DNA of 64,000 nt from Candidatus Poseidoniaceae archaeon (GTDB lineage: Archaea; Thermoplasmatota; Poseidoniia; Poseidoniales; Poseidoniaceae). Of this stretch, positions 1 through 31,115 are shown one piece after another (the first letter of the stretch is position 1; each line of letters begins with the position of its first letter). The notes below the pieces were generated by a model that searched no databases, was not told the DNA's origin, and worked only from the letters and a program-made list of their open reading frames with translations. Location: NCBI GenBank assembly GCA_965659685.1, contig CBFHXB010000011.1:8595-72594 (forward strand). The letters are read 5' to 3'. Made by a program: the position numbers and the translations under genes.

Positions 1-1
1 C

Positions 2-697
2 ACCACCTACATCGGTCGTCCCAGCCCCAACGAATTGGGCGCGCCAGACGATGCGCTCGTGGACTGGACGCGCAACGCCAGCCACGTGCCTGACGGGGCT
101 CCGTCCGCATCCACCACCCTTGAGGACGCGTTTGCCTGCCTCCGGTCGATCGGATCTTCGGCATCCGGTGCAAACGCCGCTCTCGACAACGAGGGTTACA
201 TTTGGCGCGCCGTCGGTGAATCGGGAAGCGTGGAGGACGAGTGGAACCTCTCGTGGGTCGGCAACGACGACGCCCATGGCTGGGTTCGTGTTGACGTTGG
301 ACCCGGTGAAAACGGCACCTGCACCTTCGTCCAGAAGGAGTCCCTCGACCTTGGCATCGTCTGGAACCGCGAATCGGCGCCGGCCGTGCTTCCCTTTGAC
401 GAGGTGGAAGCCTTGCTCGTGACCGAAGGCCGCTTCCCAGAACTTGTCGGCAGCGCTGGGCTGTTCGACGCCGATGGAGGTCACAACGAGGGCCTTCGTC
501 GAGGTGTGTTGGTCGCTGTGCCCGACGATGGCCTGACCGGGCTGATCAGCGAGTTGGTTGACGGTGAGGCCGGGGCCACCACCTACGATTACGTGCGAAC
601 GTGGGAGCGCCAAGGATGGGATTCGTCCTTCAGCGTGGCCGTGGATGCCACCAGCGGTCGCGTGTTGGCCACCTCCCTCATCGAGCGTCCGGCGTGA
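2..697 (+). CDS. hypothetical acidic protein, probably 5'-partial
   Basis: The track ORF 35..697 begins at a TTG. The same frame has no stop back to nt 2, so the gene probably starts upstream of the window. I recognise no motif. Its TGA overlaps the next ATG (TGATG at 695-699). Confidence 0.4.
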   Translation, partial: TTYIGRPSPNELGAPDDALVDWTRNASHVPDGAPSASTTLEDAFACLRSIGSSASGANAALDNEGYIWRAVGESGSVEDEWNLSWVGNDDAHGWVRVDVGPGENGTCTFVQKESLDLGIVWNRESAPAVLPFDEVEALLVTEGRFPELVGSAGLFDADGGHNEGLRRGVLVAVPDDGLTGLISELVDGEAGATTYDYVRTWERQGWDSSFSVAVDATSGRVLATSLIERPA

Positions 698-1713
698 TGA
701 TGGTGGACGCCGAACCTCCTTTTGGAGCCGGGCGTGGCCGTCACCTCCAAAGCCTCCGAGACCTGCATGAGGCAACGATGGGAGAACGTGGCCGTCAGGT
801 GACCGTCGGAGAAGCGGAGTTTGAGGAGCACCCTCAAGCCGCTCCAGTGGCGACCACCGCCAACGAAATTGGCTCGGCAAAAATCCGTGCGCCGCTCGAC
901 CTTCCACCCATGCAACCGTCAACCCATGGCTTGGCCCGCGTCGTTGCGGTCACCAACCAAAAGGGAGGCGTCGGAAAGACGACCACGGTGATCAACCTCG
1001 CTGCCTCCCTGGCCGCCTCCGGACTGCGTGTGCTTGTCGTGGACCTGGACGCCCAGGGGAACTGTGCCACAGGGCTGGGCATCGACAAAGCCCGGGTCGA
1101 ATTGACCACCCGTGACTTGCTCCTCAATCCCGAGCGCGCTCCGGAATGCCGTTACGCCACACGCATCCCGACGTTGCACGTCGTGGTCGGTGACCGCAGG
1201 TTGGTTTCGGTTGAAGACGCCATCCTTTCCGATTTGGGCCGCGAGTCGAGGCTGTCCGAGGGCCTCGCACCCCTGTTGCCTCACTACGACCTTGTGCTGA
1301 TCGACACCCCTCCCAATCTGGGTGTGCTTGCCATCAACGCCTTGTGCGCGGCTGACGGTGTGTTGGTGCCCGTCCAAACCGAATATTTCGCGCTCGAGGG
1401 GTTGGCCATGCTCCTTTCGACGGTCGAACAGGTGCGGCGTCGCTTGAACCCCAGCCTTGGTGTTGACGGCGTTCTGCTGACCATGCATGCCCCTACCCTG
1501 CTGAACCAACAGGTGGCCAACCTCCTTCGTGAACATCTTGGGGATGTCGTGGTCGAACCTCCCATTCGCCGCAACATTCGCCTCGCAGAGGCGACGAGCC
1601 GTGGCGAGCCCATTCACATCCATGCACCGAAATCCAACGGCGGCCAAGACCACCTCGCGGTGGCCAACGCGCTTTCTTCGCGGTGGGGATTGTCCCGGGG
1701 GCCGCAGGCATGA
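697..1713 (+). CDS. parA: ParA/Soj-family partition ATPase (copy 1)
   Basis: It has the deviant Walker A 'NQKGGVGKTTT' plus 'VVDLDAQGNCATGLG' and 'LIDTPPNLG', all Soj-like. The start is uncertain. ATG 697 gives a ~70-aa N-terminal extension with lower third-position GC, and ATG 910 (MQPSTHGLARVVAV...) is an equally plausible start. Confidence 0.85.
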   Translation: MMVDAEPPFGAGRGRHLQSLRDLHEATMGERGRQVTVGEAEFEEHPQAAPVATTANEIGSAKIRAPLDLPPMQPSTHGLARVVAVTNQKGGVGKTTTVINLAASLAASGLRVLVVDLDAQGNCATGLGIDKARVELTTRDLLLNPERAPECRYATRIPTLHVVVGDRRLVSVEDAILSDLGRESRLSEGLAPLLPHYDLVLIDTPPNLGVLAINALCAADGVLVPVQTEYFALEGLAMLLSTVEQVRRRLNPSLGVDGVLLTMHAPTLLNQQVANLLREHLGDVVVEPPIRRNIRLAEATSRGEPIHIHAPKSNGGQDHLAVANALSSRWGLSRGPQA

Positions 1714-2105
1714 GCGAGCGAGGCCTCGGACGAGGGCTCGATCACCTGATCGAACAAAACGCCACAGAACTTGGCTTCCTCGACGCTTACGGCCCGACAC
1801 CGGAGGAAGCCCTTGGCGAGGTGTTCGACGCCGCCTGCCACGCCTTGGCACGTCTGCAAGGCGTGCGGAGCGAGGAGGGATACCAGAGCGAGGGCGTGGT
1901 GTTGGAGCGTGTGCCGGAAGGGACGCGTTTGACCTGGACGGGTCAAGACTTGCCGCTGGTCCCCAGCGACCTCCGCCGACCAGGCATGCGTGAAGGGCAT
2001 CTTTCCCCAGCCCGTGACGAAGCGAACGTGGTGCTTGTCGACTGGACCCATGAGGTCCGCCGTTGCCTCGAACGCGTGGTCGAGCATTGTTCAGGCGTTG
2101 CCTGA
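1710..2105 (+). CDS. small protein carrying only the ParB N-terminal 'GLGRGL' ParA-interaction peptide
   Basis: The N-terminus is MSERGLGRGLDHLIEQ. Compare ParB/Spo0J N-termini such as MSEGRRGLGRGLSALL, recalled from memory. ATG 1710 overlaps the parA stop (ATGA). The protein is 131 aa, and I can see no ParB/Srx GERRxRA box and no obvious HTH. Confidence 0.5.
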   Translation: MSERGLGRGLDHLIEQNATELGFLDAYGPTPEEALGEVFDAACHALARLQGVRSEEGYQSEGVVLERVPEGTRLTWTGQDLPLVPSDLRRPGMREGHLSPARDEANVVLVDWTHEVRRCLERVVEHCSGVA

Positions 2106-2657
2106 GCGCCGTGCAACGGCCGCTGCGGCAACCGTCAGGGCAACGAGGCTCAGAACAAAGCCCGGACCGGGGCTCTCCTCTTCTTCCACGCAGCCGTCAG
2201 CGGTGGCACCTTCTCCGCCCCAAGCGCCGTCGTCGTAGTAGCAGTTGGACCACGTTTTGTACCAGTCGCCGAGTGGGTAGAACTCATCTTCACCGTCGCT
2301 GTAGGTCACTTTGGCACGCCAGTTGACGTAGGTGTGATCCTCCGGGGGCGTCACGGTGATCGTGTGGCTTCCTCCGTCATCCGACACCGTGGCCTCCTGA
2401 GTCACGGGCGGGTCACACACGCCGTCGTTGGTGCAGATCTGCGTGGTCAAGAGCAGGGTGGTGCCGTTGTCCACTGCGTCCTGGTCCATCGTCACGGTGA
2501 GGGTCCATGTCTCTCCGTCAACGGAGGGGGAGGTGGCCGTGTGCGCAGCAAAGGGGGTTTCCGCATGGTCAGGGCCTGAATCTTGACCGCTGACACCGCC
2601 AGCGGAGGCCACGCCGACCAACATGAGCATGAGGCCGACGAGCAACACGTTCCGCAT
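2091..2657 (-). CDS. secreted protein with N-terminal signal peptide and PGF-CTERM anchor signal
   Basis: The N-terminus MRNVLLVGLMLMLVGVASAGG looks like a signal peptide. The C-terminus '...EEEESPGPGFVLSLVALTVAAAAVARRSGNA' has PGF followed by a TM helix and RR, the archaeosortase-type sorting signal. Confidence 0.6.
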   Translation of the reverse strand: MRNVLLVGLMLMLVGVASAGGVSGQDSGPDHAETPFAAHTATSPSVDGETWTLTVTMDQDAVDNGTTLLLTTQICTNDGVCDPPVTQEATVSDDGGSHTITVTPPEDHTYVNWRAKVTYSDGEDEFYPLGDWYKTWSNCYYDDGAWGGEGATADGCVEEEESPGPGFVLSLVALTVAAAAVARRSGNA

Positions 2658-2703
2658 GGTTCGGCAGAATCGCCGCTCCTATTTGTCGCTGTGGGAGGAC
2701 GCC

Positions 2704-3210
2704 TCACTCCATTTCCCAAAGTTCGTCGCCGACCCAGTGAATCGTCTTCACCGCCTTTCCGCCGGTCGCGGCCACCATGCCTTCGCCGGAGTCGAGGGCC
2801 CATCCCAAGGCCAAGGGCCGTTGGTGCACCTCGTCACGGATCCACACAAGGTCACCTTCCGCGACGTCCACGTCCGCTCCGGAGATGCCTGCGGCCATGC
2901 AGTCCGCTCCGTTCATGAGGAAACGAATGGCGCCATGGTCCACTTCCACCCAGTGCGCAGCATCGGCGTGCTCCATCAGGCCGCGTAGGGTCAAGGCCAC
3001 GACGCGCTCGCCGTCCGGATGCTCCACGTCAACCGCTTTCGGGACTTTGTCAACAAAAACGAGGTTCCAAGGTCCGAATTCAGCGGCTTCAAGAAAGGCC
3101 CCGTCGACGTTCAGATCGATGCCAAGCGCGGCCTCGAGGTCCTTGAGCAGCGGGGCGATGGCTTTCCTTCGGATGGGCCGGCGCTTTCGGATGCTCCAAT
3201 CCTTGACCAT
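2704..3210 (-). CDS. PUA-domain RNA-binding protein (COG2016/Tma20-like)
   Basis: The protein reads 'MVKDWSIRKRRPIRRK...' with a C-terminal PUA-like 'GADVDVAEGDLVWIRDEVHQRPLALGWA...GKAVKTIHWVGDELWE'. I trimmed the track ORF (to 3321) to ATG 3210. Confidence 0.65.
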   Translation of the reverse strand: MVKDWSIRKRRPIRRKAIAPLLKDLEAALGIDLNVDGAFLEAAEFGPWNLVFVDKVPKAVDVEHPDGERVVALTLRGLMEHADAAHWVEVDHGAIRFLMNGADCMAAGISGADVDVAEGDLVWIRDEVHQRPLALGWALDSGEGMVAATGGKAVKTIHWVGDELWEME

Positions 3211-3284
3211 GCTCTTGCCGGCGCGTAGCGTGCTATGACCGTTGCCATGAGAGGGTCCAAGAATCCGGTCCATCTGGGCCGTGC

Positions 3285-3887
3285 ATGGCCATGTGGTGCG
3301 CGATTCGGACCTATGCAGCACACGCGGACGAACTAGGCAACGCCCGCCCCACCCGCCCGATTTTCTTCACCAAACCCGCCGGTTGCCTGTCCACGAGCAA
3401 CATCGTCGACGTGACCGGGCACGACGGTGAAATCCATCACGAGGTCGAGCTTGTGCTCAAATTGTGTGAAGGGGGGGAAGTCACCCACGTGGCTGTGGGT
3501 CTGGACCTCACCGACCGTGCCGCCCAACAAGAGGCTCGACCGGAGGGCCTTCCATGGGCCCGCGGAAAGGCGTTCCGAGGGGCTGCTCGCCTGGGAGGCT
3601 TTGTGCCTTGGACGCAGAGCGTGGAGGGTTTGTCCACCTCAGGGCTGCGCCTTGAATTGCGGATCGACGGTGAAGTCCGTCAATCTGCGGCCATCGCGTC
3701 GATGTCGATTCCACCGTCCCGTCTGCTGGACGATTTGCAGGACTGGGCGCCGCTGCAAGACGGCGATTTGGTGTTCACCGGAACCCCTTCGGGCGTGGGT
3801 CAATTGCACCCAGGAACCCATCTGGAGGCCGTCTTGATGGACGACAACTCGGCCGTTCTGTCCGGTTTGGACCTCCGTTGTGTTTGA
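3285..3887 (+). CDS. fumarylacetoacetate hydrolase (FAH) family protein
   Basis: 'IFFTKPAGC...EIHHEVELVLKL...VAVGLDLTDR...WARGKAF...GDLVFTGTPSGVG' is the FAH-fold signature. Confidence 0.75.
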   Translation: MAMWCAIRTYAAHADELGNARPTRPIFFTKPAGCLSTSNIVDVTGHDGEIHHEVELVLKLCEGGEVTHVAVGLDLTDRAAQQEARPEGLPWARGKAFRGAARLGGFVPWTQSVEGLSTSGLRLELRIDGEVRQSAAIASMSIPPSRLLDDLQDWAPLQDGDLVFTGTPSGVGQLHPGTHLEAVLMDDNSAVLSGLDLRCV

Positions 3888-12913: not shown

Positions 12914-14004
12914 CAGAGTTCAGCGGCTTCAGCCACGCCTGAGGCGACCAAGATGTCGGCGACGTCAGCCGTCAAGAGGTGAACGTCCCCGGAAGAGAGG
13001 ACGATTTCTTCCCCCGCGGGTCCCAAAATGGCGTCTTCCATGGACACCAGGATTCGCACGCGGGACAGCGAAGCACTCGGGGCGTCAGCAGAGGATGCCT
13101 CTGCCACGGGCGTTTCGGTCGGTTCGGAATCTGGTGCGGGTGCGAGTTCCAATGCAGCCGCGTGCCTCCCCTTTGGTTCGGGCTTTGGCGTGGCTTCACC
13201 TTGCTCGAAGAGGTATGCTTCCTCGGGCCAATCGTCCAACCGTTCCGACAGCAACCGTTCCTCTTCGTCCATCTCAAGATCCTGAAGGTCTTTCGGTGTG
13301 GGGTCCTCGAAGGCCAAGGCAGGTGGTGGACTTCCCGTCAGGCCCTCCTTGCTTCCAGTGAACGCGTCGAGTTGGGTGGTGCCTGCCGGGGCCAAGTCTG
13401 CGACAGCCGGGCGGCTTGCAGCGGCTTCCGCAGGAAGTCCGTTCTGCATCGAGGCCCAATCCACGGCGAGCTTGAAGCGGTCCATCTGCTCCTTCATCGT
13501 GGTGTAGAACTCCCGCTCTGCAGGGTCATGGCGGCTCCAATCCAACGAAGGGAGTTCGTTGGGTTGGCTCGCCGGCGAAGGTGAACGCAGCGATTGGCTT
13601 GAGGCGTGTTGCATCATGGCCACAAGGCGGCGCCTCGCCAATTCGCTTGCCACGCGCCGGATGGTTGCCTGACGGCGCTGGAGGTTCTGGACCCGGAGGT
13701 CGAATCCGTGTTTTCGAACGGCTTCGTGCAGGTCCAAATCGATGGATTGGAGCAACCTGCTCACGGCATTCCAAAAGTCAGGCCGTGGCAGCGGGATGGG
13801 GATGCGCCGGTTGATTTGTTGGCGGTGGGTGGTGGTGAGTTGCTCCTCCACCTCTCGGGCAGCGGCCTCATCGAGGGGACCTGCTGCACTCATCACCTGC
13901 TCGTCGGGACGAGACCACTTGAAACCTTCAATCGACACGTCATACAAGGCGAACGAGCGTTCAAGTTCATCAGGACCTGTGGTCCAAGGGATGGAGGCCC
14001 ACAT
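12913..14004 (-). CDS. putative GINS subunit (Gins51/Gins15-like) with a long acidic insertion
   Basis: The N-terminal helical part 'LPRPDFWNAVSRLL...IRRVASELARRRLVAMMQHA' and the C-terminal 'VRILVSMEDAILGPAGEEIVLSSGDVHLLTADVADILVASGVAEAAEL' match my memory of the archaeal GINS51 A and B domains. A ~180-aa acidic, low-complexity linker lies between them. ATG 13893 is an alternative start. Confidence 0.4.
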   Translation of the reverse strand: MWASIPWTTGPDELERSFALYDVSIEGFKWSRPDEQVMSAAGPLDEAAAREVEEQLTTTHRQQINRRIPIPLPRPDFWNAVSRLLQSIDLDLHEAVRKHGFDLRVQNLQRRQATIRRVASELARRRLVAMMQHASSQSLRSPSPASQPNELPSLDWSRHDPAEREFYTTMKEQMDRFKLAVDWASMQNGLPAEAAASRPAVADLAPAGTTQLDAFTGSKEGLTGSPPPALAFEDPTPKDLQDLEMDEEERLLSERLDDWPEEAYLFEQGEATPKPEPKGRHAAALELAPAPDSEPTETPVAEASSADAPSASLSRVRILVSMEDAILGPAGEEIVLSSGDVHLLTADVADILVASGVAEAAEL

Positions 14005-17000
14005 GCAGCGTCGCCGTGCGTCCCTTGGGATGCTTCTGGTGCTCCTGCTGCCCCTCTTCGTCCCCGTGGTTCATGCCGGCCTTGGTCCCTTGCGGCAAAC
14101 CAGCAGCTCAACGGCCACGGTGACCCCTCTCGGAGGTGGCGGTGGCATCACGGCGAACAACGTCACGTCCGTGTCGGTCCCGCTCAACCATACCGTGGTG
14201 GACGCAGGTCTCACCTTGGGGACCGTGTGGAGCGAAGACGGATCCAACGGCACCCAGTTTTCTCATGACGTGAGGACCGGCTTCTCGGTTGGTCTCCACG
14301 ACCGCACGGAGGGCCTGTTGAGGGGAGGTCGGTTGACCCTTGCTTCACCGGAGTCGACCAACGACGTGGAGGACTTTGAGGATCCTGTCCTGACCCCCGA
14401 CGGCTGGCTGGCCGTTGGAAGCGCCGACCGTTCGTGGTCAACGGTCAACCTGAGTTCAGCGTCGTTGAACGCTTCGTTCCCTGCAAGCGCCCAGGACGGC
14501 CACAGGGCCCTCCTTCTTGGGGGGGCAAACGTGAGCTTGACGCCCAAGATGGCCGGTTGCTTCGTTGCGCCTCAGGTGGACGGTCCACGCGTGGTTCGAA
14601 ACATGACGGTCAACTTCCACTCCTCGGCCGATTTGGGTCCTCAGGACGCACGTTGGGTTGAATGGCGCAGTGCGACGTCCCCGACGTGGGCAGCCTTGGC
14701 TCCTGAAGGAGGATACCCGCACGCGATGAACGGGAGTTTCGATGCGGGCATGCAACCCGACCCTACCGGGCTGAGTGCGGCATGGGTGGGCGACGAAACC
14801 CAAGGATGGATGCGCCATACGCTCTCCCTCGACGGGCACGTGGGATCATCTGAGCCGTGGTACCAGATTCGCTTCTGTTTCGCGACGACCAACGAGACGG
14901 CATCACGTTCCGGATGGTTGCTTGACGGACTCAGCGTTCACAACGAAGGCGATCCTGGTGGGGCTTGGTTCCATGGCAACCTCTCGGGCGCCTATGCGCC
15001 AGACGCGGACGGTTGGGTGATTTTGGACACCGATCTTTCCGGGCTCTCCTCTCCCACGGAACTTGTGTTCCGGGCAAATTGGGACATGGAGGGCGGTTGG
15101 CAAGACAGCATGACCACCCTCCTCAGCCTCGACAACGGCACCTCGTGGACCTTGTTGTCGCAAGCCCCCGGCCTGCCTGGAAACGGCATCCTCTGGCAAG
15201 GAGGGTGGCTGACGCAGGAATCAGGGGGGTGGATCGACGTCGGCTACAGCCTCCCACCCGCCGTCTTCACCTCTTCGAACGCGTCGTCCGCTCAACTGGC
15301 CTTCCGTGTCATCACCGACACCAACGTTGGGTACGGCAACGCCGGCGTGGACGGTTGGGAGGGCATGGCCATCGATGACCTGCGTGCCATCACCTACGGT
15401 GGTGTCGGCAACACCACCGTGCGGATGCTGAACAATTTCACCTCCACTCCTGTGCTGGGACAAGGGGTCAACCTGAGCCAAACAAACAGCACGAACGAAT
15501 GGGCATGGACCACCGCCCTCGGTGCAAACGGCCCAACATGGTGGAATGCATCCTTTGAATCCGGTCGCATGGTGCCTCGCGGCTGGTCGATTTCATTGGA
15601 GCGGGGCCAAGGTTGGGACGTGGGGGTGCTTCCCAACGGAACGACCTCGGGACCCCGGGCTTGGACGTCGGGGAACAACGGTGCCGGGATCGTCCTCGAC
15701 GGGGATTACGCCGCTGAAAGTTTGGCCTTCTTGACCTCGCCGAGTTACAGTCTCCCGGACAACAGCAGCGCACGTTTGGCCTTCCGTTCGTGGGTGTGCA
15801 CGGAAACAGATTGGGACGGTGGAGCCGTCCAGATTTCCGTGGACGACGGTGCCACGTGGTGGTTCCCACCTTACCACAGCCACACGCATCACACCCTTTC
15901 GAGGATGAACCCATATTCGCCGTTCTACGATGAAGGCATCTACGACGGCTCCATCCACAACGGTGGATGCCCCACCCGTTCGCAGAGTTTCGACGCCGAA
16001 ACCATCGACGTCAGCAACTTGTCTGGACAGGACGTTCGCTTCAGGTACGTCTTCTTCTCCGACACCTGGGTGGAAAAAGACGGGTGGTACATCGACGATG
16101 CAGGCGTTGAAATCGACGTGTTCCTGAACGAAGGCACCTGGACGTCCCCCGCATTCAGCGCTCCAGCTCGGTCCATGTGGGGGTTGCTCGACGGTCATGC
16201 AAGGCTCCCTCCCGGCACCAATCTCACCGTCGATTTGCTCCATCAAAACGGCTCGGCGGTGGACGGGTGGACGGGCCTCACGCTCCCCACCCACGTCAGC
16301 CTCCTGACCAGCGAGGCGCCCGTGCTCCGCCTCCGCGTGAACATGTCCACCACGTCCTCCTTGGCCACGCCCATCCTCGAACGGCTGACCATGGGGAGTG
16401 TGGCGCATCTGGATGCTGCCCATCTCGGACCAGTGCTACCAAGCGGCCTCGTGGTGGGTCAAGACGGTGCGGTGAGCAACGTGGCCACCTCGGGCACCTA
16501 CCTGCCCTTCTCAGCATGGCCCTCGTGCCCGCACGACCGGGCAACGGTGCACGTGATCGCGCAAGGAGCTCGCCTTGTGGCCCCAGGGGCCTCCGTCACG
16601 TCCGTCGGCAACGCCTCTGGGGTCGAAACCTTCGACGTGGCATGGAACGCCGTGCGGTTGCACTCTGGGATCAGCATGGAATTGCCTCCAGGCGCGAGCA
16701 TGAAGGAGGTCCGAAGCGAAGTGGATTGCGTCCATTCGGCCACCGGACTCACGGTTGGTCTCGACACGCAAACCCACGAGGTGTTCGACATGGCCTCCTT
16801 GGGTCATGGAAACGTGCTTGGCGCTGCCGACGCGTTGGCCATGGTCCTGAACGCCACCGACGGTACCCTTCTCTGGGACGGCAACAGCAGCAGCTCAGGG
16901 CCCGTCACCGCTTCCAACCAGAGCCTCGAATTGGTGTGGTGGGTGGAAGGTTCGTCCAGCCAGTCCGCCTCCTCAATCCCCTTTGACATGGTTTTCGACC

Positions 17001-20000
17001 TCGGAGCAGAGGGTCTCTCCGCCTCTCATCCGGCCAACACCGTCACCTTCACCCACGTCACCAACGGCGCAGGTCATCTTCACCTCAACGGCATCGCCTC
17101 ATGTCAACGTCACGCCGATGCGCCCTCGGTTGACGGACAGCGGTGCAGCACTTCCTTGCGGGTCTGGTCAGCGGCCACCTTGCAGCCCCATGCCTTCACC
17201 GCACTGAGTCCCGTGGACGATCGTCGGCTGTCGCTGGACCTCGCCATCGTGGACGCGGCCTTGGCCGACCGGCGTGCCGGGAGCACGGCGTCTGAGCACC
17301 CGCTCGAAGTCTGGGTTGCGACAGAGCACGGCGCCGTGGACGTTACCCTCGATCTCTCTTCCCGCGTCACGTTGCACGACGCCTTTGTCCAGGTTCCAAC
17401 ACGGGCATGGACGCCGGGGACCAACGTGACGGTCATCACCGAGCACGAGCGGACCGACCCACGAGATCCCCTTTCCAGCGTGCCGCTGATCGAATCGGTC
17501 ACGCTTGGGTTTGGTCCTTCACCGTCCTCACCGCTTGGTGAAGTCACGGTGGATCGTTTGAGCGAAGGCCTCGCTCGGTTCAGGCAACCCGGCGGGGCCG
17601 GAATCGCGCCACTGCAAGACACCAGCACCGTGGCGTGCGACGCCCGTTCATGCCGGGTTGCGTGGACGTTCACGTCGACATGGTCCTTTGATGACGTGGT
17701 TCGCCTGCATTGGTGGACGGCCGCAACGGACGTGGAGGGACTGACCACCGGACCCGTGGTGCAAGCCATGGACGTGCAGGGCAACGACGTCGAGAACGAC
17801 CTTGAGGTGCTCTCTTTGGAAGTGTTCGACGATCGGGGACGAGCCTTGCACGACTGGACCAAGCCGCTTTGGCCGTACGAAGTGAGTGCAAACCGGAGCA
17901 TGGAGGTCCGCGGTCAACTTCGCATCGAAGGCATCGCAGGCGTCCACCCCTCGGCCGGCGATGCCTCCATCAGCCTCGAGTTGCGCAACGGGACGTGGAT
18001 GGACAGCGTCTTCGTCAGCGTCCAAGACGGGGGTTGGTTCAACGGCACCCTTGTCATGCCGCAGCCCGGCATCTTGCCAAGCGGCGCGGAGCTGACGGTG
18101 CAGGCACGCATCACGAGGTTCGGCCCTTACGATGCACCCTCCACCACCAGCGAGCAACGGGGCACCTCTCCGGTGGTGGACCTGGTGTACGACGACGTGG
18201 CTCCTCAACTCGTCGCCTTGGACGTGCTTGACCCCGGGGGCCGGCAGCCGGCAGACGGCCATGTGCTTCCCGCTGACGCGAACGTCGCTCTGGTGTTGAA
18301 CCTCAGAGACGACCAAGGCTTGGACGGACCCGCCTTCGTCTGGTCGTGGTTGCAATCGCGTGACGATGCCAACGGCAACGGCGTCAGTGAGGCAGGGGAA
18401 TGGGCGCGTGTCCTGGTGCCGTTGGCCGAAGGACGCACGGAACAATCCCTTGACTTGCCGTTGATTCAGGCCTCGGACATCGTCCCAACCGGAGCCGATC
18501 TTGGCCTTGCTCGCTTTGTGGTGGAAGCCTACGATGTGGCAGGGCACATGCTTCCCGGAGGCGGTGCATTCGAAGGGCCGTTCGCAGCGGAACTTCGTCT
18601 TGAAGCACGCCGACCCACCACCGTCCCTACGTCGAGTTTGGTGCTTGACGCAGACCAAGGTCGGTTGTATCCTGGCCATCTCCACACGTTCTCCGTCGAA
18701 GTCAGGGACGCCAACGGCCTGACCACCTTGGACGCCGTCGAACTGGCCCTTCTCGGCCAGGATGAAGACGCATGCCGTATCCTCTACGTCCCAAGAACGG
18801 AGGAAACCCGACCCGACGTGGCATGCTTCCTCGGCGCACCCGTGGTCAACGTTCAGCACCTCGGTGGGGCAGCATGGCGGCTGGACGTGACCTTCAGGTT
18901 GCGATGGGACGTGGCCTCAACGCATGCTGGACAGGACCATGTCCCGGCCCTGTTCGTCCGCGACGAGGGCCAAGACCTTGGCCTCGGATTTGGGCGGATC
19001 AGCGCCTTGACGTGGTGGACCAACGCCTCGGTTGATCTTCGTCTGGAGTCGGCCACGGACACCTCTCCGCCGTACGGCTCCTACACAGACGGGTCCCTTT
19101 TCGCAGAGCGTGGCGACGTGGTGAACTTCGCGTATCGTGCGGTGCACTCCAACTCCAACCGCACAGCAGAGCGGCTGCCCGACACCGTCCAATTGGACTG
19201 GTCGGTCACCGACGGAGCCCGCACGGACTCGGGTTCGCTGGACGTTCCAAACGACGGCAGGCCGATGCTTCGCTTGTCCCTCGACCCCACGCTCTTTGTC
19301 CGAACCTCGGGTCAATTGGACGCCACGTTGTCGGGTTGGTCGGAAGGAAACCTGTCCCATCGGGTGACCGTGCACATCGACGAGAACGATCCTCGCTTGC
19401 GGGTGGACGCCGTCCGCTTCCTGCAGGTGGACAGCACCTCGCTCGGTGAGGTGCCGTTGGCGGTCACCGTGCAGGACGTCGAGCGTCCCGTGGAGCAAGG
19501 GGTTGAGGCCCATTGGAGGATGTTGCGTCAAGGCCGCGTGCTCGACGGCTCTCAGGGAAGCACAGCCTTGTTTCTCGAATCCATGAACGGCCAATCAGCC
19601 CTTCATTCTGGAACCGTGGACCTTCGTCCGGACGGCTTCAACGTCGTGGAAGGTGACGTTTGGCAGGTGTGGTTCACCGCGACCGACGCCTCCGGGAGGG
19701 GTGCGGTCGGAGAAGGCAGCCTCACCGAACCCGTCACCGTCACGATGCGGTGGATCGCCTATCAACCCGCCCTTGCTTCCTTGGTGGCCGCCCCGTACCG
19801 CCCGTCCGTCGGCGACGTGGTCAACGTGGATTTCGAACTGGCCAATGGGGGCGTCTTGCCTGGCTCGACCCACGTTCGATTGGTGGACGGCGAAGGGGTG
19901 ACGCTGACCGAGGCGCAGGTCGCCCTCGAACCCGGAGAGCGCCAGCGCGTGTTGTGGACCGTCGAAGCGTGGACCGTCGGCGACCTTGGACTTCGTCTCC

Positions 20001-20224
20001 AACTCGGCAACGGGACCGTAAGCGACGTCCCCGTGCCGCTGGCAGACGTCAGCGCAGCAAGCGATGCCCCAAGCGGCAGCAACGTGGGTTGGACGAGCCT
20101 TGGCGCTCTGGCGCTCATTTTGGCCGTGGCAAGCCTTGTCACCGTTCGAATGCAAACCGGATCGAAGCCTCCCTCGAAGCAGGTTGTGGATCTCGGGTTC
20201 GAGGCCTTCGATGAGGAAGAATGA
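14003..20224 (+). CDS. giant (~2070 aa) secreted surface glycoprotein candidate with a C-terminal TM anchor
   Basis: The signal peptide MQRRRASLGMLLVLLLPLFVPVVHAG starts at ATG 14003 (or MEAH at 13991). I counted more than 30 N-x-S/T sequons by eye. Lectin/MAM-like module ends recur ('GWLLDGLSVHNEG', 'GWEGMAIDDLRAI', 'GWYIDDAGVEIDVF'). The C-terminus has the TM helix 'LGALALILAVASLVTV' followed by an acidic tail. The track start 13742 overlaps the divergent gene. Confidence 0.7.
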   Translation: MQRRRASLGMLLVLLLPLFVPVVHAGLGPLRQTSSSTATVTPLGGGGGITANNVTSVSVPLNHTVVDAGLTLGTVWSEDGSNGTQFSHDVRTGFSVGLHDRTEGLLRGGRLTLASPESTNDVEDFEDPVLTPDGWLAVGSADRSWSTVNLSSASLNASFPASAQDGHRALLLGGANVSLTPKMAGCFVAPQVDGPRVVRNMTVNFHSSADLGPQDARWVEWRSATSPTWAALAPEGGYPHAMNGSFDAGMQPDPTGLSAAWVGDETQGWMRHTLSLDGHVGSSEPWYQIRFCFATTNETASRSGWLLDGLSVHNEGDPGGAWFHGNLSGAYAPDADGWVILDTDLSGLSSPTELVFRANWDMEGGWQDSMTTLLSLDNGTSWTLLSQAPGLPGNGILWQGGWLTQESGGWIDVGYSLPPAVFTSSNASSAQLAFRVITDTNVGYGNAGVDGWEGMAIDDLRAITYGGVGNTTVRMLNNFTSTPVLGQGVNLSQTNSTNEWAWTTALGANGPTWWNASFESGRMVPRGWSISLERGQGWDVGVLPNGTTSGPRAWTSGNNGAGIVLDGDYAAESLAFLTSPSYSLPDNSSARLAFRSWVCTETDWDGGAVQISVDDGATWWFPPYHSHTHHTLSRMNPYSPFYDEGIYDGSIHNGGCPTRSQSFDAETIDVSNLSGQDVRFRYVFFSDTWVEKDGWYIDDAGVEIDVFLNEGTWTSPAFSAPARSMWGLLDGHARLPPGTNLTVDLLHQNGSAVDGWTGLTLPTHVSLLTSEAPVLRLRVNMSTTSSLATPILERLTMGSVAHLDAAHLGPVLPSGLVVGQDGAVSNVATSGTYLPFSAWPSCPHDRATVHVIAQGARLVAPGASVTSVGNASGVETFDVAWNAVRLHSGISMELPPGASMKEVRSEVDCVHSATGLTVGLDTQTHEVFDMASLGHGNVLGAADALAMVLNATDGTLLWDGNSSSSGPVTASNQSLELVWWVEGSSSQSASSIPFDMVFDLGAEGLSASHPANTVTFTHVTNGAGHLHLNGIASCQRHADAPSVDGQRCSTSLRVWSAATLQPHAFTALSPVDDRRLSLDLAIVDAALADRRAGSTASEHPLEVWVATEHGAVDVTLDLSSRVTLHDAFVQVPTRAWTPGTNVTVITEHERTDPRDPLSSVPLIESVTLGFGPSPSSPLGEVTVDRLSEGLARFRQPGGAGIAPLQDTSTVACDARSCRVAWTFTSTWSFDDVVRLHWWTAATDVEGLTTGPVVQAMDVQGNDVENDLEVLSLEVFDDRGRALHDWTKPLWPYEVSANRSMEVRGQLRIEGIAGVHPSAGDASISLELRNGTWMDSVFVSVQDGGWFNGTLVMPQPGILPSGAELTVQARITRFGPYDAPSTTSEQRGTSPVVDLVYDDVAPQLVALDVLDPGGRQPADGHVLPADANVALVLNLRDDQGLDGPAFVWSWLQSRDDANGNGVSEAGEWARVLVPLAEGRTEQSLDLPLIQASDIVPTGADLGLARFVVEAYDVAGHMLPGGGAFEGPFAAELRLEARRPTTVPTSSLVLDADQGRLYPGHLHTFSVEVRDANGLTTLDAVELALLGQDEDACRILYVPRTEETRPDVACFLGAPVVNVQHLGGAAWRLDVTFRLRWDVASTHAGQDHVPALFVRDEGQDLGLGFGRISALTWWTNASVDLRLESATDTSPPYGSYTDGSLFAERGDVVNFAYRAVHSNSNRTAERLPDTVQLDWSVTDGARTDSGSLDVPNDGRPMLRLSLDPTLFVRTSGQLDATLSGWSEGNLSHRVTVHIDENDPRLRVDAVRFLQVDSTSLGEVPLAVTVQDVERPVEQGVEAHWRMLRQGRVLDGSQGSTALFLESMNGQSALHSGTVDLRPDGFNVVEGDVWQVWFTATDASGRGAVGEGSLTEPVTVTMRWIAYQPALASLVAAPYRPSVGDVVNVDFELANGGVLPGSTHVRLVDGEGVTLTEAQVALEPGERQRVLWTVEAWTVGDLGLRLQLGNGTVSDVPVPLADVSAASDAPSGSNVGWTSLGALALILAVASLVTVRMQTGSKPPSKQVVDLGFEAFDEEE

Positions 20225-27112: not shown

Positions 27113-27156
27113 GCGAAGGAACGAGCCATTCAAGGCCAAGAGGTCCATGTGGCGTC

Positions 27157-29559: not shown

Positions 29560-29814
29560 TCACGACCAGCGCACGGGAAGGTCTGCGCGAAGTTTGGCCA
29601 GTTCCTCTCCAGAATAGAGCGGTCGACCTCCTTCTTTTACCGTGCTCTGAATGAGCCACAGCACGCCGTTCCAGGCGCTCCGTGTCGCGGTGATTTCGAC
29701 GTCTCCCCGGGCGGCAACGCCCATGAGTTCTGCTTCAACGGTGGTGGGGTCGAAGAGGGCTTTCACAAGGTGGCGGGTCTCAAAGGCCACCTGAGGTGGC
29801 TTCCAACTCATCAT
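29560..29814 (-). CDS. small hypothetical protein, last gene of the ParA-RHH cassette
   Basis: 84 aa from ATG 29814, or 87 aa from GTG 29823, which overlaps the RHH gene stop. High third-position GC. I recognise no family, and RelE/ParE signatures are not seen. Confidence 0.4.
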   Translation of the reverse strand: MMSWKPPQVAFETRHLVKALFDPTTVEAELMGVAARGDVEITATRSAWNGVLWLIQSTVKEGGRPLYSGEELAKLRADLPVRWS

Positions 29815-29819
29815 GGCGA

Positions 29820-30062
29820 TCACACCCTGAATGGAGCGAGGTTCAACCGCTCGACGAGGTGGTCCACGTCGACGTCCGCCGTTGCCTTCGCACGCTCGCG
29901 AAGCAACTCAAGGCTGCCGTCCATGCGCGCCATGCGTTGGTGGCGAATGAGGTCAAGCAGGACCTCATTCACGCTCTTGTATCCGCCAAGCGAGCGCAAC
30001 GTGTTCAATTGTCTTCGTACTTCGTAGCTCACGCTTACCGAGGTCATTCCCTTCGCTGTCAT
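29820..30062 (-). CDS. ribbon-helix-helix (RHH/CopG/Arc-type) DNA-binding protein
   Basis: 'TSVSVSYEVRRQLNTLRSLGGYKSVNEVLLDLIRHQ' matches the beta-strand, helix, helix pattern of RHH proteins. It is 80 aa and lies directly downstream of ParA copy 2. Confidence 0.55.
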   Translation of the reverse strand: MTAKGMTSVSVSYEVRRQLNTLRSLGGYKSVNEVLLDLIRHQRMARMDGSLELLRERAKATADVDVDHLVERLNLAPFRV

Positions 30063-30152
30063 CGTGCATCCCGTTGGTTGGTGCCCTCTATGCGCTACTT
30101 AAGGCGCGCGAGGCGGAATGCCCCTTGAGGGCGATTTCAGGACCCCTTGCGC

Positions 30153-31115
30153 TCAGCGGCGACCCTGCGCCTCAAGGGAGACCCTTGAGGGCTCACGGAC
30201 CCCGAATTCTCGACGCATGTCCTGCACGCGGCGGTGGAATTCGCGTGCCAAGGTCCAGTATTCCAGGGAGCCTGCTCCGGCTCCGGAGGACGTGGGTTTG
30301 TTGAGCAAGACGGTCGGTGCTCCGGACCACGGTGCCTCAGCCACGTTCACCAGACGTCGAATCGACGTGCTGAACAATTTGTTCGGGATGCTGAGGGCGA
30401 CTTGGTCGCACACGTGACGCGACAGTTTGGAGCGGGCGTCGACCATGGTCATCACGACGCCGAAAATCTTCAGGTTCCGGTTGATCCTTCGCTGGATCAT
30501 CTTGACCGAGTTCATCAGCATGCTGAATCCTTCCAAGGAGTAGTATTCCGCCTGAACGGGGACCATCACCCAATTTGCTGCGCTCAGGGCGTTGATGGAC
30601 AACAGTCCGAGGGAGGGGGGTGTGTCGATGACGATGTAGTCGAAGTGGTCGATGATGGGCGCCAACGCTTCCTTGAGGCGAGTCTCACGCCCGATCTTGT
30701 GGGAGAGTTCGATCTCCGCTCCGGAGAGGTGGATGTCGCTGGGAAGCAACCAGAGGTTCTCTGTGGTCAGGGTGGCGGGTGGACGGCCCTTCTCGTTGCG
30801 CAGCATCCATGCGTTCCGCATGGAGGCCGTCAGGTCCTCAGGACCGATCAGGTACTCGTCCATCAAGGGCAATTCCTCGCCGAGATCGTTGGTCAAGAGG
30901 TCGTACGCCGTCTTTTTGACGCGCTTCTTCTCGATGCCAAAGGACGTCGCGCAGTTCCCTTGCGGATCCAAATCGATGAGCAACACCTTCGCAGGAGGTA
31001 GCCCCATCTTCTGGTGACCGCGGGCCAGCGCCGCTGCAAGGTTGACCGCCGTGGTGGTCTTCGCGCAACCGCCCTTTTGGTTGGCGACCGCGATGACCAT
31101 CTTGTACGGGTCCAT
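30153..31115 (-). CDS. parA: ParA/Soj-family ATPase (copy 2)
   Basis: It has the deviant Walker A 'NQKGGCAKTTT', plus 'LIDLDPQGNCATSFG' and 'VIDTPPSLG'. A ~40-aa insertion follows the Walker A region, and the C-terminal tail is basic. Confidence 0.85.
   Translation of the reverse strand: MDPYKMVIAVANQKGGCAKTTTAVNLAAALARGHQKMGLPPAKVLLIDLDPQGNCATSFGIEKKRVKKTAYDLLTNDLGEELPLMDEYLIGPEDLTASMRNAWMLRNEKGRPPATLTTENLWLLPSDIHLSGAEIELSHKIGRETRLKEALAPIIDHFDYIVIDTPPSLGLLSINALSAANWVMVPVQAEYYSLEGFSMLMNSVKMIQRRINRNLKIFGVVMTMVDARSKLSRHVCDQVALSIPNKLFSTSIRRLVNVAEAPWSGAPTVLLNKPTSSGAGAGSLEYWTLAREFHRRVQDMRREFGVREPSRVSLEAQGRR

What the first reader, a model, noticed from the sequence alone, without database searches (positions are those of the whole stretch)
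697..2105. ParA copy 1 is paired with a 131-aa 'mini-ParB' that keeps only the ParA-activating GLGRGL peptide
The gene overlapping the parA stop (ATGA at 1710-1713) encodes MSERGLGRGLDHLIEQ... This is nearly identical to the conserved extreme N-terminus of bacterial chromosomal ParB/Spo0J proteins, the peptide that contacts ParA and stimulates its ATPase. The rest of the 131-aa protein lacks the ParB/Srx CTPase box (GERRxRA) and any HTH I can recognise. The cassette may therefore be a degenerate ParABS remnant. Alternatively it may be a system in which a ParA-activating peptide has been grafted onto a different, unknown cargo- or DNA-binding domain. Together with copy 2, the window carries two distinct ParA cassettes within 30 kb, each with a non-canonical partner.
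Basis: partly seen in the sequence, partly recalled or inferred. Interest (0 to 1): 0.65.

Follow-up and report, generated by a model that had tools for sequence, protein, structure and literature searches.

The report
Archaeal ParA partner with ParB tail
In marine group II archaea, the small gene after a bacterial-type ParA encodes a conserved protein that carries bacterial ParB's ParA-binding tail on an unrelated fold with no match in the libraries searched, and it nearly always sits beside a membrane-anchored SAP-domain protein, which suggests an undescribed hybrid DNA-positioning module.

Summary
parA1 ends in ATGA at 1710-1713, where a 131-aa gene starts MSERGLGRGLDHLIEQ. That start reproduces the spacing of the ParA-binding motif mapped in M. 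xanthus ParB (L-x-R-x-L-x-x-L-I). Nothing else in the protein resembles ParB: no ParB/Srx box, HTH or RHH.

It is not a remnant or a frameshift. The gene is found in 192 Poseidoniales (Marine Group II) species genomes, at about the same length, with dN/dS around 0.1.

Residues 1-28 are predicted disordered. Residues 29-131 fold confidently (pLDDT 92) into an α-β3-α-β2-α domain with no significant structural match. The family is acidic.

The constant neighbour is a roughly 700-aa protein with an N-terminal SAP domain and one membrane helix, not ParA. The window's first 697 bases encode its C-terminus. ParA1 lies between the two genes in about half of the species. Where ParA1 is absent, the first Leu and the basic N-terminus are mostly lost, but GRGLDHL[IM]EQN.TEL.FL.AYG persists.

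Best reading: a new ParA-activating adaptor, with a ParB-type peptide on a novel cargo-binding domain, probably linking a Soj-type ParA to the SAP membrane protein. No binding was tested. ParA1 most likely starts at 778, not 697.

The parts
2..697 (+). C-terminal 231 codons of the upstream SAP-domain, single-pass membrane protein (about 680-750 aa in relatives). The window cuts off its N-terminus.
   Evidence: BLASTP to the SAP proteins of L004, L007 and L001 gives 2.5e-39, 4.5e-23 and 8e-13. In relatives the SAP domain scores Pfam 1.5e-12, and there is one hydrophobic helix, an acidic N-terminal part and 6 Cys in the C-terminal part. The gene lies immediately upstream of the small gene, or of parA1, in 76 of 79 species loci.
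739..757 (+). Conserved non-coding box CGTCACCTCCAAAGCCTCC, 20 nt upstream of the likely parA1 start. Function unknown.
   Evidence: It is a single copy in the window, with 0.01 expected by chance. The core CGTCA[GC]C(C)TC(C)AA[AG] is kept upstream of parA1 in the ParA1+ lineages examined, while the rest of the spacer diverges.
778..1713 (+). parA1: a Soj-type ParA ATPase of 311 aa with a lineage-specific N-terminal extension of about 50 aa.
   Evidence: AAA_31 1e-54. The best PDB relatives are bacterial ParA/Soj. The signature Lys, the Walker A' Asp, Walker B and the DNA-binding Arg (Mx R238, here R268) are kept. The start is set by ortholog alignment.
1710..2105 (+). The 131-aa 'mini-ParB' gene: a ParA-partner or adaptor family specific to Poseidoniales.
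   Evidence: ATGA overlap with parA1. 34 close homologs, 85 representatives at 50% identity and 192 species genomes. dN/dS 0.07-0.12.
1722..1751 (+). Residues 5-14, GLGRGLDHLI: the ParB-type ParA-binding motif (L6, R8, L10, L13, I14).
   Evidence: Its spacing is identical to the ParA-binding residues of M. xanthus ParB (PMC12462528). It aligns with real ParB N-termini. R8, L10 and L13 are at least 90% conserved.
1752..1793 (+). Residues 15-28, EQNATELGFLDAYG: a second, family-specific conserved part of the disordered tail. Function unknown.
   Evidence: Q16, L21, F23, L24, Y27 and G28 are invariant in A1. The segment is kept in lineages without ParA1 and without an adjacent SAP gene. pLDDT is below 60.
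1794..2102 (+). Residues 29-131: a globular α-β3-α-β2-α domain with conserved LPLVPSDL and W..RRFxERLxEH motifs.
   Evidence: AlphaFold2 pLDDT 91.9, pTM 0.84. No Foldseek hit better than E 0.04 in PDB or 5e-3 in BFVD, and TM at most 0.57. Invariant P82, V84, D87 and R122.
30153..31115 (-). parA2: the second, more conserved Soj-type ParA, and a possible alternative client of the peptide.
   Evidence: 40% identical to ParA1. At least 120 Poseidoniales clusters at 62-98% identity. All six positions equivalent to the M. xanthus ParB-binding pocket are hydrophobic and nearly invariant. Its 80-aa and 87-aa downstream genes carry no LG[RK]GL.

Best explanation
The 131-aa protein is a ParA/MinD 'ATPase-activating protein' of a new type.

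Its disordered N-terminal tail carries the ParA-binding motif of bacterial chromosomal ParB. The tail is inferred to fold into a short amphipathic helix that docks at the edge of an ATP-bound, DNA-bound Soj-type ParA dimer and stimulates ATP hydrolysis.

Its C-terminal α/β domain replaces the ParB/Srx, HTH and dimerisation domains and is inferred to hold the cargo. The most likely cargo is the cytoplasmic part of the co-operonic SAP-domain membrane protein. That part consists of a DNA-binding SAP domain and an acidic linker with a conserved EVLEAEV(L/F)(E/D)A motif. The three genes would then couple membrane-tethered DNA to a ParA gradient on the nucleoid.

Shown here: the anatomy, the conservation, the gene linkage, the absence of ParB domains, and an apparently intact ParA1. 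Inferred: peptide-ParA binding, ATPase activation, and the identity of the cargo.
For: - Motif. L6-x-R8-x-L10-x-x-L13-I14 matches the experimentally mapped ParA-binding residues of M. xanthus ParB. It sits at the extreme N-terminus in a region of low pLDDT, as in ParB.
- Homology limited to the tail. hhalign aligns only this region to real ParBs.
- Coupling. The gene is translationally coupled to parA1: a 4-nt overlap here, and an overlap or a gap of about 9 nt or less in the other lineages.
- ParA1. It is of the bacterial Soj type and keeps the catalytic and DNA-binding residues. It keeps 4 of the 6 pocket positions, L150/L152/L155/L192, as L/V/I/L.
- Co-variation with ParA1. A hydrophobic residue at the L6 position is present in 33 of 37 ParA1+ species loci but in 9 of 39 SAP-only loci. 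The residues before it are basic on average (+0.95) in ParA1+ loci and slightly acidic (-0.23) in ParA1-less loci.
- Cargo. The SAP/TM gene is adjacent in 76 of 79 loci, and its stop lies 17-41 nt before the L10-equivalent codon when ParA1 is absent, which places the genes in one operon. The family is acidic (pI mostly 4.2-5.4), which fits a protein-binding adaptor better than a DNA binder.
- General principle. [quoted passage not shown]
Against: - No interaction was tested.
- GRGLDHL[IM] is still strictly conserved in about half of the species that have no ParA1 within 8 kb and no deviant Walker-A gene nearby. It is partly kept (SRDL) where even the SAP gene is not adjacent. The tail must therefore have another partner or function.
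- ParA1 has polar residues (D/Q/E and Q/E) at two of the six pocket positions, equivalent to Mx V116 and L187. T. thermophilus Soj also has Glu at the second of these.
- The link between ParA1 presence and the motif state is largely one phylogenetic split, with two exceptions. The Fisher p of 3e-6 overstates independence.
- Nothing shows that the α/β domain binds the SAP protein. The weak top structural neighbours include a DNA-binding domain, the T4 MotA C-terminal domain.
Confidence: 0.5

Rival explanations
1. The protein is itself the centromere-binding protein. Its α/β domain would bind a specific DNA site directly, as the small type Ib partners ParG, SegB and HpaB do, and its tail would activate ParA. 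The SAP membrane protein would be a separate function.
For: It occupies the usual position of a centromere-binding gene, just downstream of parA. The best, though non-significant, structural neighbours are the DNA-binding C-terminal domain of T4 MotA and YjbR. R118 and R122 are conserved on the last helix. A conserved non-coding box lies upstream of parA1.
Against: Most family members are acidic (pI 4.2-5.4). There is no RHH or HTH. No repeated or palindromic site stands out around the operon, there is no canonical parS, and the conserved box is a single non-palindromic copy. Foldseek E-values are 0.04 or worse, with RMSD above 5 Å. The gene persists without ParA1.
Confidence: 0.17
2. The resemblance to the ParB tail is convergent or incidental. 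The conserved N-terminal segment (GRGLDHLIEQN.TEL.FL.AYG) would be a linear motif for another partner, for example the SAP membrane protein or self-association, and ParA1 would be an accessory gene that happens to sit in the operon.
For: The segment is conserved over 24 residues, well beyond the ParB motif. It is retained in lineages with no ParA1 and largely retained where neither ParA1 nor SAP is adjacent. ParA1 has two polar pocket positions. The SAP gene, not ParA1, is the constant neighbour.
Against: The match covers the ParA-contact residues and also the non-contact glycines and Asp (GLGRGLD). It lies at the extreme N-terminus of a gene coupled to a Soj-type ParA, whose bacterial relatives use exactly this peptide. 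The ParB-specific first Leu and the basic N-terminus are mostly present with ParA1 and mostly lost without it. A second Soj-type ParA with a fully canonical pocket is widespread in the order and could explain the retention.
Confidence: 0.2
3. The ORF is a decayed or frameshifted N-terminal fragment of a normal ParB, that is, a non-functional remnant.
For: Only the ParB N-terminal peptide is recognisable.
Against: Length and reading frame are conserved in 192 species genomes and hundreds of clusters. dN/dS is 0.07-0.12. The domain model is confident. No ParB-like sequence was found in the window or in 90 related loci. The next gene is convergent and overlaps the 3' end by 15 nt.
Confidence: 0.02

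Closest known systems
Bacterial chromosomal ParB/Spo0J (ParABS)
   Same: The extreme N-terminal, disordered ParA-binding motif LG(R/K)GLxxL(I/L). The gene lies directly after a Soj-type parA and is translationally coupled to it.
   Different: It lacks the ParB/Srx CTPase domain, the HTH that binds parS and the C-terminal dimerisation domain. It is 131 aa rather than about 280-330 aa, it is acidic, and no canonical parS is present in the window.
Small type Ib and archaeal centromere-binding partners: ParG (TP228), SegB (Sulfolobales), HpaB (Haloferax pHV3)
   Same: A small protein encoded after a ParA-type ATPase, with a flexible N-terminal tail thought to contact the ATPase and a globular C-terminal domain (PMC8682754, PMC12139799, bioRxiv 10.1101/2025.11.19.689047).
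   Different: Those proteins are RHH or helical DNA binders. SegB is defined by a C-terminal K/R-D/N-P-K/R-I-G/T-V/L-WS motif and pairs with SegA. This protein has an α-β3-α-β2-α fold, no such motif, a Soj-type ParA, and a tail that copies the ParB motif rather than a generic basic tail.
Modular ParA/MinD ATPase-activating proteins (PomX, McdB, TlpT, MinE)
   Same: [quoted passage not shown]
   Different: Those peptides are lineage-specific and unrelated to the ParB motif. Here the peptide matches the ParB motif itself, the host is an archaeon, and the cargo domain and its SAP-membrane neighbour are new.
ParT of Streptomyces plasmid SCP2 (CTP-independent ParB-like protein)
   Same: A ParA partner that activates ParA although it lacks a CTPase domain (bioRxiv 10.1101/2024.05.08.592561).
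   Different: ParT is still a parS-binding, DNA-sliding ParB-like protein. The protein here has no recognisable DNA-binding domain.
pNOB8 AspA-ParB-ParA three-component partition system (recalled from memory, not checked here)
   Same: A three-part logic: a DNA binder, an adaptor that carries the ParA-contacting N-terminus, and a ParA motor.
   Different: The components are unrelated in sequence and fold. Here the presumed DNA binder is a membrane-anchored SAP-domain protein.

Membership tests
ParB/Spo0J (PF02195 ParBc, TIGR00180) | N-terminal ParA-binding motif (aliphatic residues around a central R/K) | tested here: met
   L6, R8, L10, L13, I14 correspond to Mx ParB L11, R13, L15, L18, I19. 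The motif aligns to real ParB N-termini.
ParB/Spo0J (PF02195 ParBc, TIGR00180) | ParB/Srx CTP-binding domain with the GERRxRA box | tested here: not met
   No Pfam or NCBIfam hit at E <= 1. hhalign aligns nothing beyond residue 34. No box in the ORF. The fold differs.
ParB/Spo0J (PF02195 ParBc, TIGR00180) | Helix-turn-helix parS-binding domain and C-terminal dimerisation domain | tested here: not met
   The AF2 model is α-β3-α-β2-α with no HTH. No ParB structure appears among the listed top 50 Foldseek matches in PDB.
ParB/Spo0J (PF02195 ParBc, TIGR00180) | Cognate parS palindrome near the operon | tested here: not met
   One match to TGTTNCACGTGAAACA at 3 mismatches, against 1.7 expected, and it lies 60 kb away. 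No convincing palindrome in 1-3400. Non-canonical sites cannot be excluded.
SegB (archaeal SegAB) | C-terminal signature K/R-D/N-P-K/R-I-G/T-V/L-WS-Y/P-P/E and a helical DNA-binding fold (PMC12139799) | tested here: not met
   The signature is absent from the sequence. No PDB sequence hit, SegB entries included. The model is α/β, not helical.
SegB (archaeal SegAB) | Paired with a SegA-type ATPase | tested here: not met
   ParA1 matches bacterial ParA/Soj at 1e-42 to 1e-58 but SegA (7dut) only at 3e-15.
RHH centromere-binding proteins (ParG, HpaB type) | Ribbon-helix-helix fold | tested here: not met
   The predicted topology has five strands and three helices, with no N-terminal β-α-α unit. 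No RHH family hit.
ParA/MinD ATPase-activating proteins (functional class) | Unstructured N-terminal extension with a positive residue needed for activation | tested here: met
   pLDDT is below 50 for most of residues 1-18. R8 is R in all 57 unique N-termini from the loci, and basic residues precede it in ParA1+ lineages.
ParA/MinD ATPase-activating proteins (functional class) | Binds its ParA and stimulates ATP hydrolysis | not testable with these tools
   This needs biochemistry or a multimer prediction. Only single-chain prediction was available.
ParA/Soj (for parA1) | Deviant Walker A with signature Lys, Walker A' Asp, Walker B, non-specific DNA-binding Arg | tested here: met
   NQKGGVGKTT, VDLDAQGN, LVLIDTPP, and R268 at the position of Mx R238, in the alignment to 8ray. 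AAA_31 1e-54.
Secretion-chaperone-like / MotA C-terminal-domain-like folds | Significant structural superposition | tested here: inconclusive
   Weak hits to a type III secretion chaperone (SycT), YjbR and the MotA C-terminal domain, but the best E is 0.04, TM 0.38-0.52 and RMSD about 5 Å. The resemblance in helix/strand order to type III chaperones is recalled from memory and was not tested.

The most novel reading that the evidence does not exclude
Poseidoniales, the most abundant planktonic archaea of the surface ocean, may run a hybrid chromosome-membrane positioning machine.

Its three parts would be:
- a membrane-anchored SAP-domain DNA tether, an analogue of eukaryotic LEM/HeH/SAP inner-nuclear-membrane proteins;
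- an archaeal adaptor domain;
- a ParB-type peptide, possibly of bacterial origin, that drives a Soj-type ParA.

The peptide's main client may be the order-wide ParA2, whose ParB-binding pocket is fully canonical and whose own neighbours carry no such peptide. That would explain why GRGLDHL survives in genomes that lost ParA1.
Probability: 0.2. Interest if true: 0.8.

Novelty: new variant of a known kind. Interest (0 to 1): 0.62.

Why it matters
Chromosome segregation in Archaea is known from very few systems: SegAB, pNOB8 and, recently, HpaAB. None comes from the uncultured marine Thermoplasmatota.

This locus gives a concrete and testable candidate. It has a bacterial-type ParA, a partner that keeps only the few residues of ParB that touch ParA, and a DNA-binding membrane protein.

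If the peptide works as inferred, it is a natural experiment showing the minimal transferable unit of ParB. It would also be an example of domain replacement in a partition system, and the SAP membrane protein would point to membrane-tethered DNA positioning in an archaeon. The lineages that lost ParA1 offer a built-in comparison for what the rest of the tail does.

Tried and rejected
- Sequence searches with the peptide alone failed for statistical or tool reasons: PDB phmmer with 30 aa gave no hit, tblastn against plasmids gave no match, and the big-database search refuses queries under 40 aa. I compared the peptide directly with ParBs fetched next to ParA relatives instead.
- SegB, RHH and HTH identities are rejected by sequence and model.
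- Phage and defence families: no hit for the small protein.
- Canonical parS and local repeats: nothing above chance.
- A natural ParA1-mini fusion looked possible from two database proteins (P0068, P0103). None of the ParA1+ loci scanned has the two genes in one frame, so these are probably frameshifted calls on short contigs.
- I tried to show that ParA1-less genomes still carry ParA2. Look-ups are limited to 10 kb of flank and refuse proteins taken from loci. Matching contig names and lengths between the ParA2 and mini lists gave no shared contig. This remains untested.
- The Fisher test linking motif state to ParA1 is kept only as a description, because the tree shows essentially one split.
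Full report
**What is there**

The window is chromosomal DNA of a high-GC (61.8%) archaeon. It encodes ribosomal protein S8e, SRP19, aIF5B, family B DNA polymerase, EF-1α and deoxyhypusine synthase.

Homologs of the gene in question come only from Marine Group II archaea (Poseidoniales): 192 GTDB species genomes, all labelled Poseidoniales, Poseidoniaceae, Thalassarchaeaceae or their older synonyms. The one exception is a record labelled as a bacterium.

parA1 ends with TGA at 1711-1713 and the next gene starts with ATG at 1710-1712. That gene runs to 2105 and encodes 131 aa, MSERGLGRGLDHLIEQNATELGFLDAYG....

ParA1 is a typical deviant-Walker-A ATPase (AAA_31 1e-54). It is far closer to bacterial chromosomal ParA/Soj (8ray 9e-58, T. 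thermophilus Soj 6e-50, H. pylori Soj 3e-42) than to archaeal SegA (3e-15). Alignment with orthologs places its start at ATG 778, giving 311 aa, not at 697. Bases 2-697 encode the C-terminus of the upstream gene.

**Is the ParB resemblance real?**

In M. xanthus ParB the residues that bind ParA are L11, R13, L15, L18 and I19, within an unstructured N-terminal peptide that is sufficient to stimulate ParA when DNA is present (PMC12462528). The archaeal protein has L6, R8, L10, L13 and I14, which is the same spacing, also at the extreme N-terminus.

I fetched two annotated ParBs that lie next to ParA genes closely related to ParA1. They begin ...RPSGLGRGLNALFG and MTIKSRGLGRNLSVLLG.

A profile-profile comparison of the family with these ParBs aligns residues 3-34 with ParB 15-46 (E 4.4e-4, probability 33%) and nothing else. 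The resemblance is therefore real but confined to the tail.

The rest of the protein has no Pfam, NCBIfam, PHROG, PADLOC or PDB sequence match. No ParB/Srx box occurs in any real ORF of the window. Two bacterial ParBs find nothing significant in the window or in 90 related loci. There is no canonical parS.

**It is a real, constrained gene**

- 34 close homologs, nearly all of 130-131 aa.
- 85 representatives at 50% identity. Apart from an unrelated 611-aa repeat protein and two ParA-mini run-together gene calls, all are at most 220 aa.
- More than 520 clusters at 90% identity for one subclade alone.
- dN/dS against seven relatives is 0.07-0.12 where dS is not saturated.

This rules out a frameshifted or decaying ParB.

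**Anatomy**

AlphaFold2 gives residues 1-28 low confidence. Residues 29-131 form a compact α-β3-α-β2-α domain: pLDDT 83 for the whole protein, and 91.9 with pTM 0.84 for the domain alone.

Foldseek finds nothing significant. The best PDB E-value is 0.04 (T4 MotA C-terminal domain), followed by YjbR and the type III secretion chaperone SycT at TM 0.4-0.5 and RMSD about 5 Å. The best viral E-value is 5e-3. I treat the fold as unassigned. It is not ParB/Srx, HTH or RHH.

Conserved features are:
- the tail (K/R)xLGRGLDxLxEQNxT(E/D)LxFLxAYG;
- a loop LPLVPSDL, with P82, V84 and D87 invariant;
- a C-terminal helix W..RRFxERLxEH.

Most members are acidic (pI 4.2-5.4).

**Context, the main new finding**

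In related loci the order is integrase, RimK, an unknown gene, a roughly 700-aa SAP-domain protein, (ParA1), the small gene, then PUA, FAA hydrolase, S8e and SRP19 as in the window.

The SAP protein has these parts:
- an N-terminal SAP domain (Pfam 1.5e-12);
- an acidic linker carrying a conserved EVLEAEV(L/F)(E/D)A-type motif;
- one hydrophobic helix, with basic residues on its N-terminal side;
- a roughly 500-aa C-terminal part with six cysteines.

This looks like a DNA-binding domain held at the inner face of the membrane.

Among 79 species loci, 37 are SAP-ParA1-mini and 39 are SAP-mini, with the SAP stop 17-41 nt before the L10-equivalent codon. Three have neither gene adjacent. A further abundant lineage (P0036) has the small gene alone beside an MFS transporter gene. 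No other deviant Walker-A gene lies within 8 kb in the ParA1-less loci.

**The tail tracks ParA1 only in part**

With ParA1, 33 of 37 loci have a hydrophobic residue at the L6 position, and the N-terminus is basic (MSKKRVLGRGLDDLL, MSERGLGRGLDHLI). Without ParA1, 9 of 39 do, and the N-terminus is short and acidic (MSTDGRGLDHLMEQN). Where SAP is not adjacent either, GRGL becomes SRDL or RDL.

R8, L10, L13 and the whole second half of the tail are nevertheless kept everywhere.

The neighbour-joining tree shows that ParA1 presence is mostly a single split. There are two exceptions: L076 has ParA1 inside the ParA1-less clade, and L087 lacks it inside the ParA1+ clade. The association is therefore suggestive, not statistically independent. 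ParA1 orthologs on both sides of the tree suggest that ParA1 is ancestral and was later lost.

**ParA pockets**

I mapped the six M. xanthus pocket residues (V116, L150, L152, L155, L187, L192) onto the archaeal ParAs.
- ParA1 orthologs have Q/D/E, L, L/V/I, I/V, E/Q, L. That is four hydrophobic and two polar positions.
- ParA2 orthologs have I, L, L, I, M/L, I. All six are hydrophobic and nearly invariant in 112 sequences.

T. thermophilus Soj also has Glu at the L187 position, so ParA1 is not disqualified.

ParA2 (30153-31115, minus strand) is highly conserved across the order (62-98% identity, contigs up to 2.4 Mb), within a conserved aIF5B-MoxR-ParA2-80aa-85aa array. Its small neighbours carry no LG[RK]GL motif and only a very short N-terminal tail. 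ParA2 is thus a plausible second client of the peptide, which would explain why the peptide is retained without ParA1. I could not show that ParA1-less genomes carry ParA2.

**Mechanism I commit to (confidence about 0.5)**

The protein is a new type of ParA-activating adaptor. Its tail folds on a DNA-bound Soj-type ParA·ATP dimer and triggers hydrolysis. Its α/β domain holds a cargo, most likely the cytoplasmic part of the SAP membrane protein.

This is the modular principle already described for PomX, McdB, ParG and MinE (PMC7993993). The difference is that the peptide here matches the ParB motif itself.

The main rivals are:
- a direct centromere-binding role for the domain (0.17);
- a tail with a function unrelated to ParA (0.20);
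- a ParB remnant (0.02).

**Comparison with known systems**

It is not a ParB: three of four defining features were tested and not met. It is not a SegB: there is no signature motif, the fold is different, and the ATPase is not SegA-like (PMC12139799). It is not an RHH partner such as HpaB.

It works most like a ParB reduced to its ParA-contacting peptide, or like the adaptor of a three-component system.

I found no paper on ParA systems in Poseidoniales in the library. No family model covers the protein.

**Verdict**

The 'graft' interpretation is supported and the 'remnant' interpretation is rejected. This is a new variant of a known kind of system. It is of real interest to the partition field but rests entirely on inference until binding is tested.

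Noticed in passing
window 2-697 (+); full-length orthologs at L001:2955-4985, L004:3929-6004, L007:2631-4880: The upstream gene encodes a roughly 700-aa protein with an N-terminal SAP domain, an acidic linker, one membrane helix and a large Cys-containing C-terminal part. A DNA-binding SAP/HeH-type domain anchored to the archaeal membrane recalls eukaryotic LEM/HeH inner-nuclear-membrane tethers. The linker has a conserved motif such as EVLEAEVFEAEI or EEVLEAEVLDAIPIEDD.
   Followed up: partly
window 739-757 (+); upstream of parA1 in the ParA1+ loci listed (e.g. L010-L019, L031-L090): A conserved non-coding box CGTCA[GC]C(C)TC(C)AA[AG] lies 20-45 nt before the parA1 start, across lineages with very different GC content. 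The rest of the spacer is not conserved. It is a single, non-palindromic copy of unknown function (promoter element, operator or leader).
   Followed up: partly
window 778-930 (+): ParA1 orthologs share a roughly 50-aa N-terminal extension with two conserved motifs: (V/A)(E/D)(A/V)EF(E/T)E and A(K/E)PRx(P/E)(L/I)xLP. The first resembles the acidic motif in the linker of the SAP protein, which hints at a shared binding partner.
   Followed up: partly
window 29560-31115 (-): The second ParA cassette is ParA2 (320 aa), then an 80-aa protein (MTAKGMTSVSVSYEVRRQLNTLR...) that looks ribbon-helix-helix-like by eye but has no family or PDB hit, then an 87-aa protein. The array follows aIF5B and a MoxR ATPase and is syntenic on Mb-scale contigs. 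ParA2 is more conserved than ParA1 and has a fully hydrophobic ParB-peptide pocket, yet no neighbour with such a peptide.
   Followed up: partly
L104-L113 (P0036 lineage); also L022, L054: A third arrangement: the small gene stands alone next to a divergent MFS transporter gene and a fasciclin-domain gene. No SAP or ParA gene lies within 3.5-8 kb, and the tail reads SRDLDHLMEQN.
   Followed up: partly
window 2091-2657 (-): A convergent 188-aa gene overlaps the 3' end of the small gene by 15 nt. It has an N-terminal signal-like helix and a C-terminal ...PGPGF + hydrophobic helix + RR, which looks like an archaeal PGF-CTERM sorting signal. A gene of similar size (about 174-201 aa, no family hit) occupies the same position on the opposite strand in related loci. 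Homology between them was not checked.
   Followed up: no
window 27109-29559 (+) and 13742-20224 (+): An 816-aa membrane-anchored protein is full of D-x-D-G-D-G-x-x-D repeats that look calcium-binding. A 2160-aa giant protein has only a weak MAM-like hit. Both are probably surface proteins.
   Followed up: no
L012 (CAXRAI010000058.1): A GTDB/NCBI record titled 'Salinimicrobium sp.' (a bacterium) carries a typical Poseidoniales SAP-ParA1-mini locus that is 77% identical to the window's protein. The contig is probably mis-binned or mislabelled.
   Followed up: no
P0068, P0103 (database proteins on short contigs): These gene calls run from the ParA1 C-terminus straight into the small protein. None of the ParA1+ loci scanned has the two genes in one frame, so these are probably assembly frameshifts rather than natural fusions.
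   Followed up: yes
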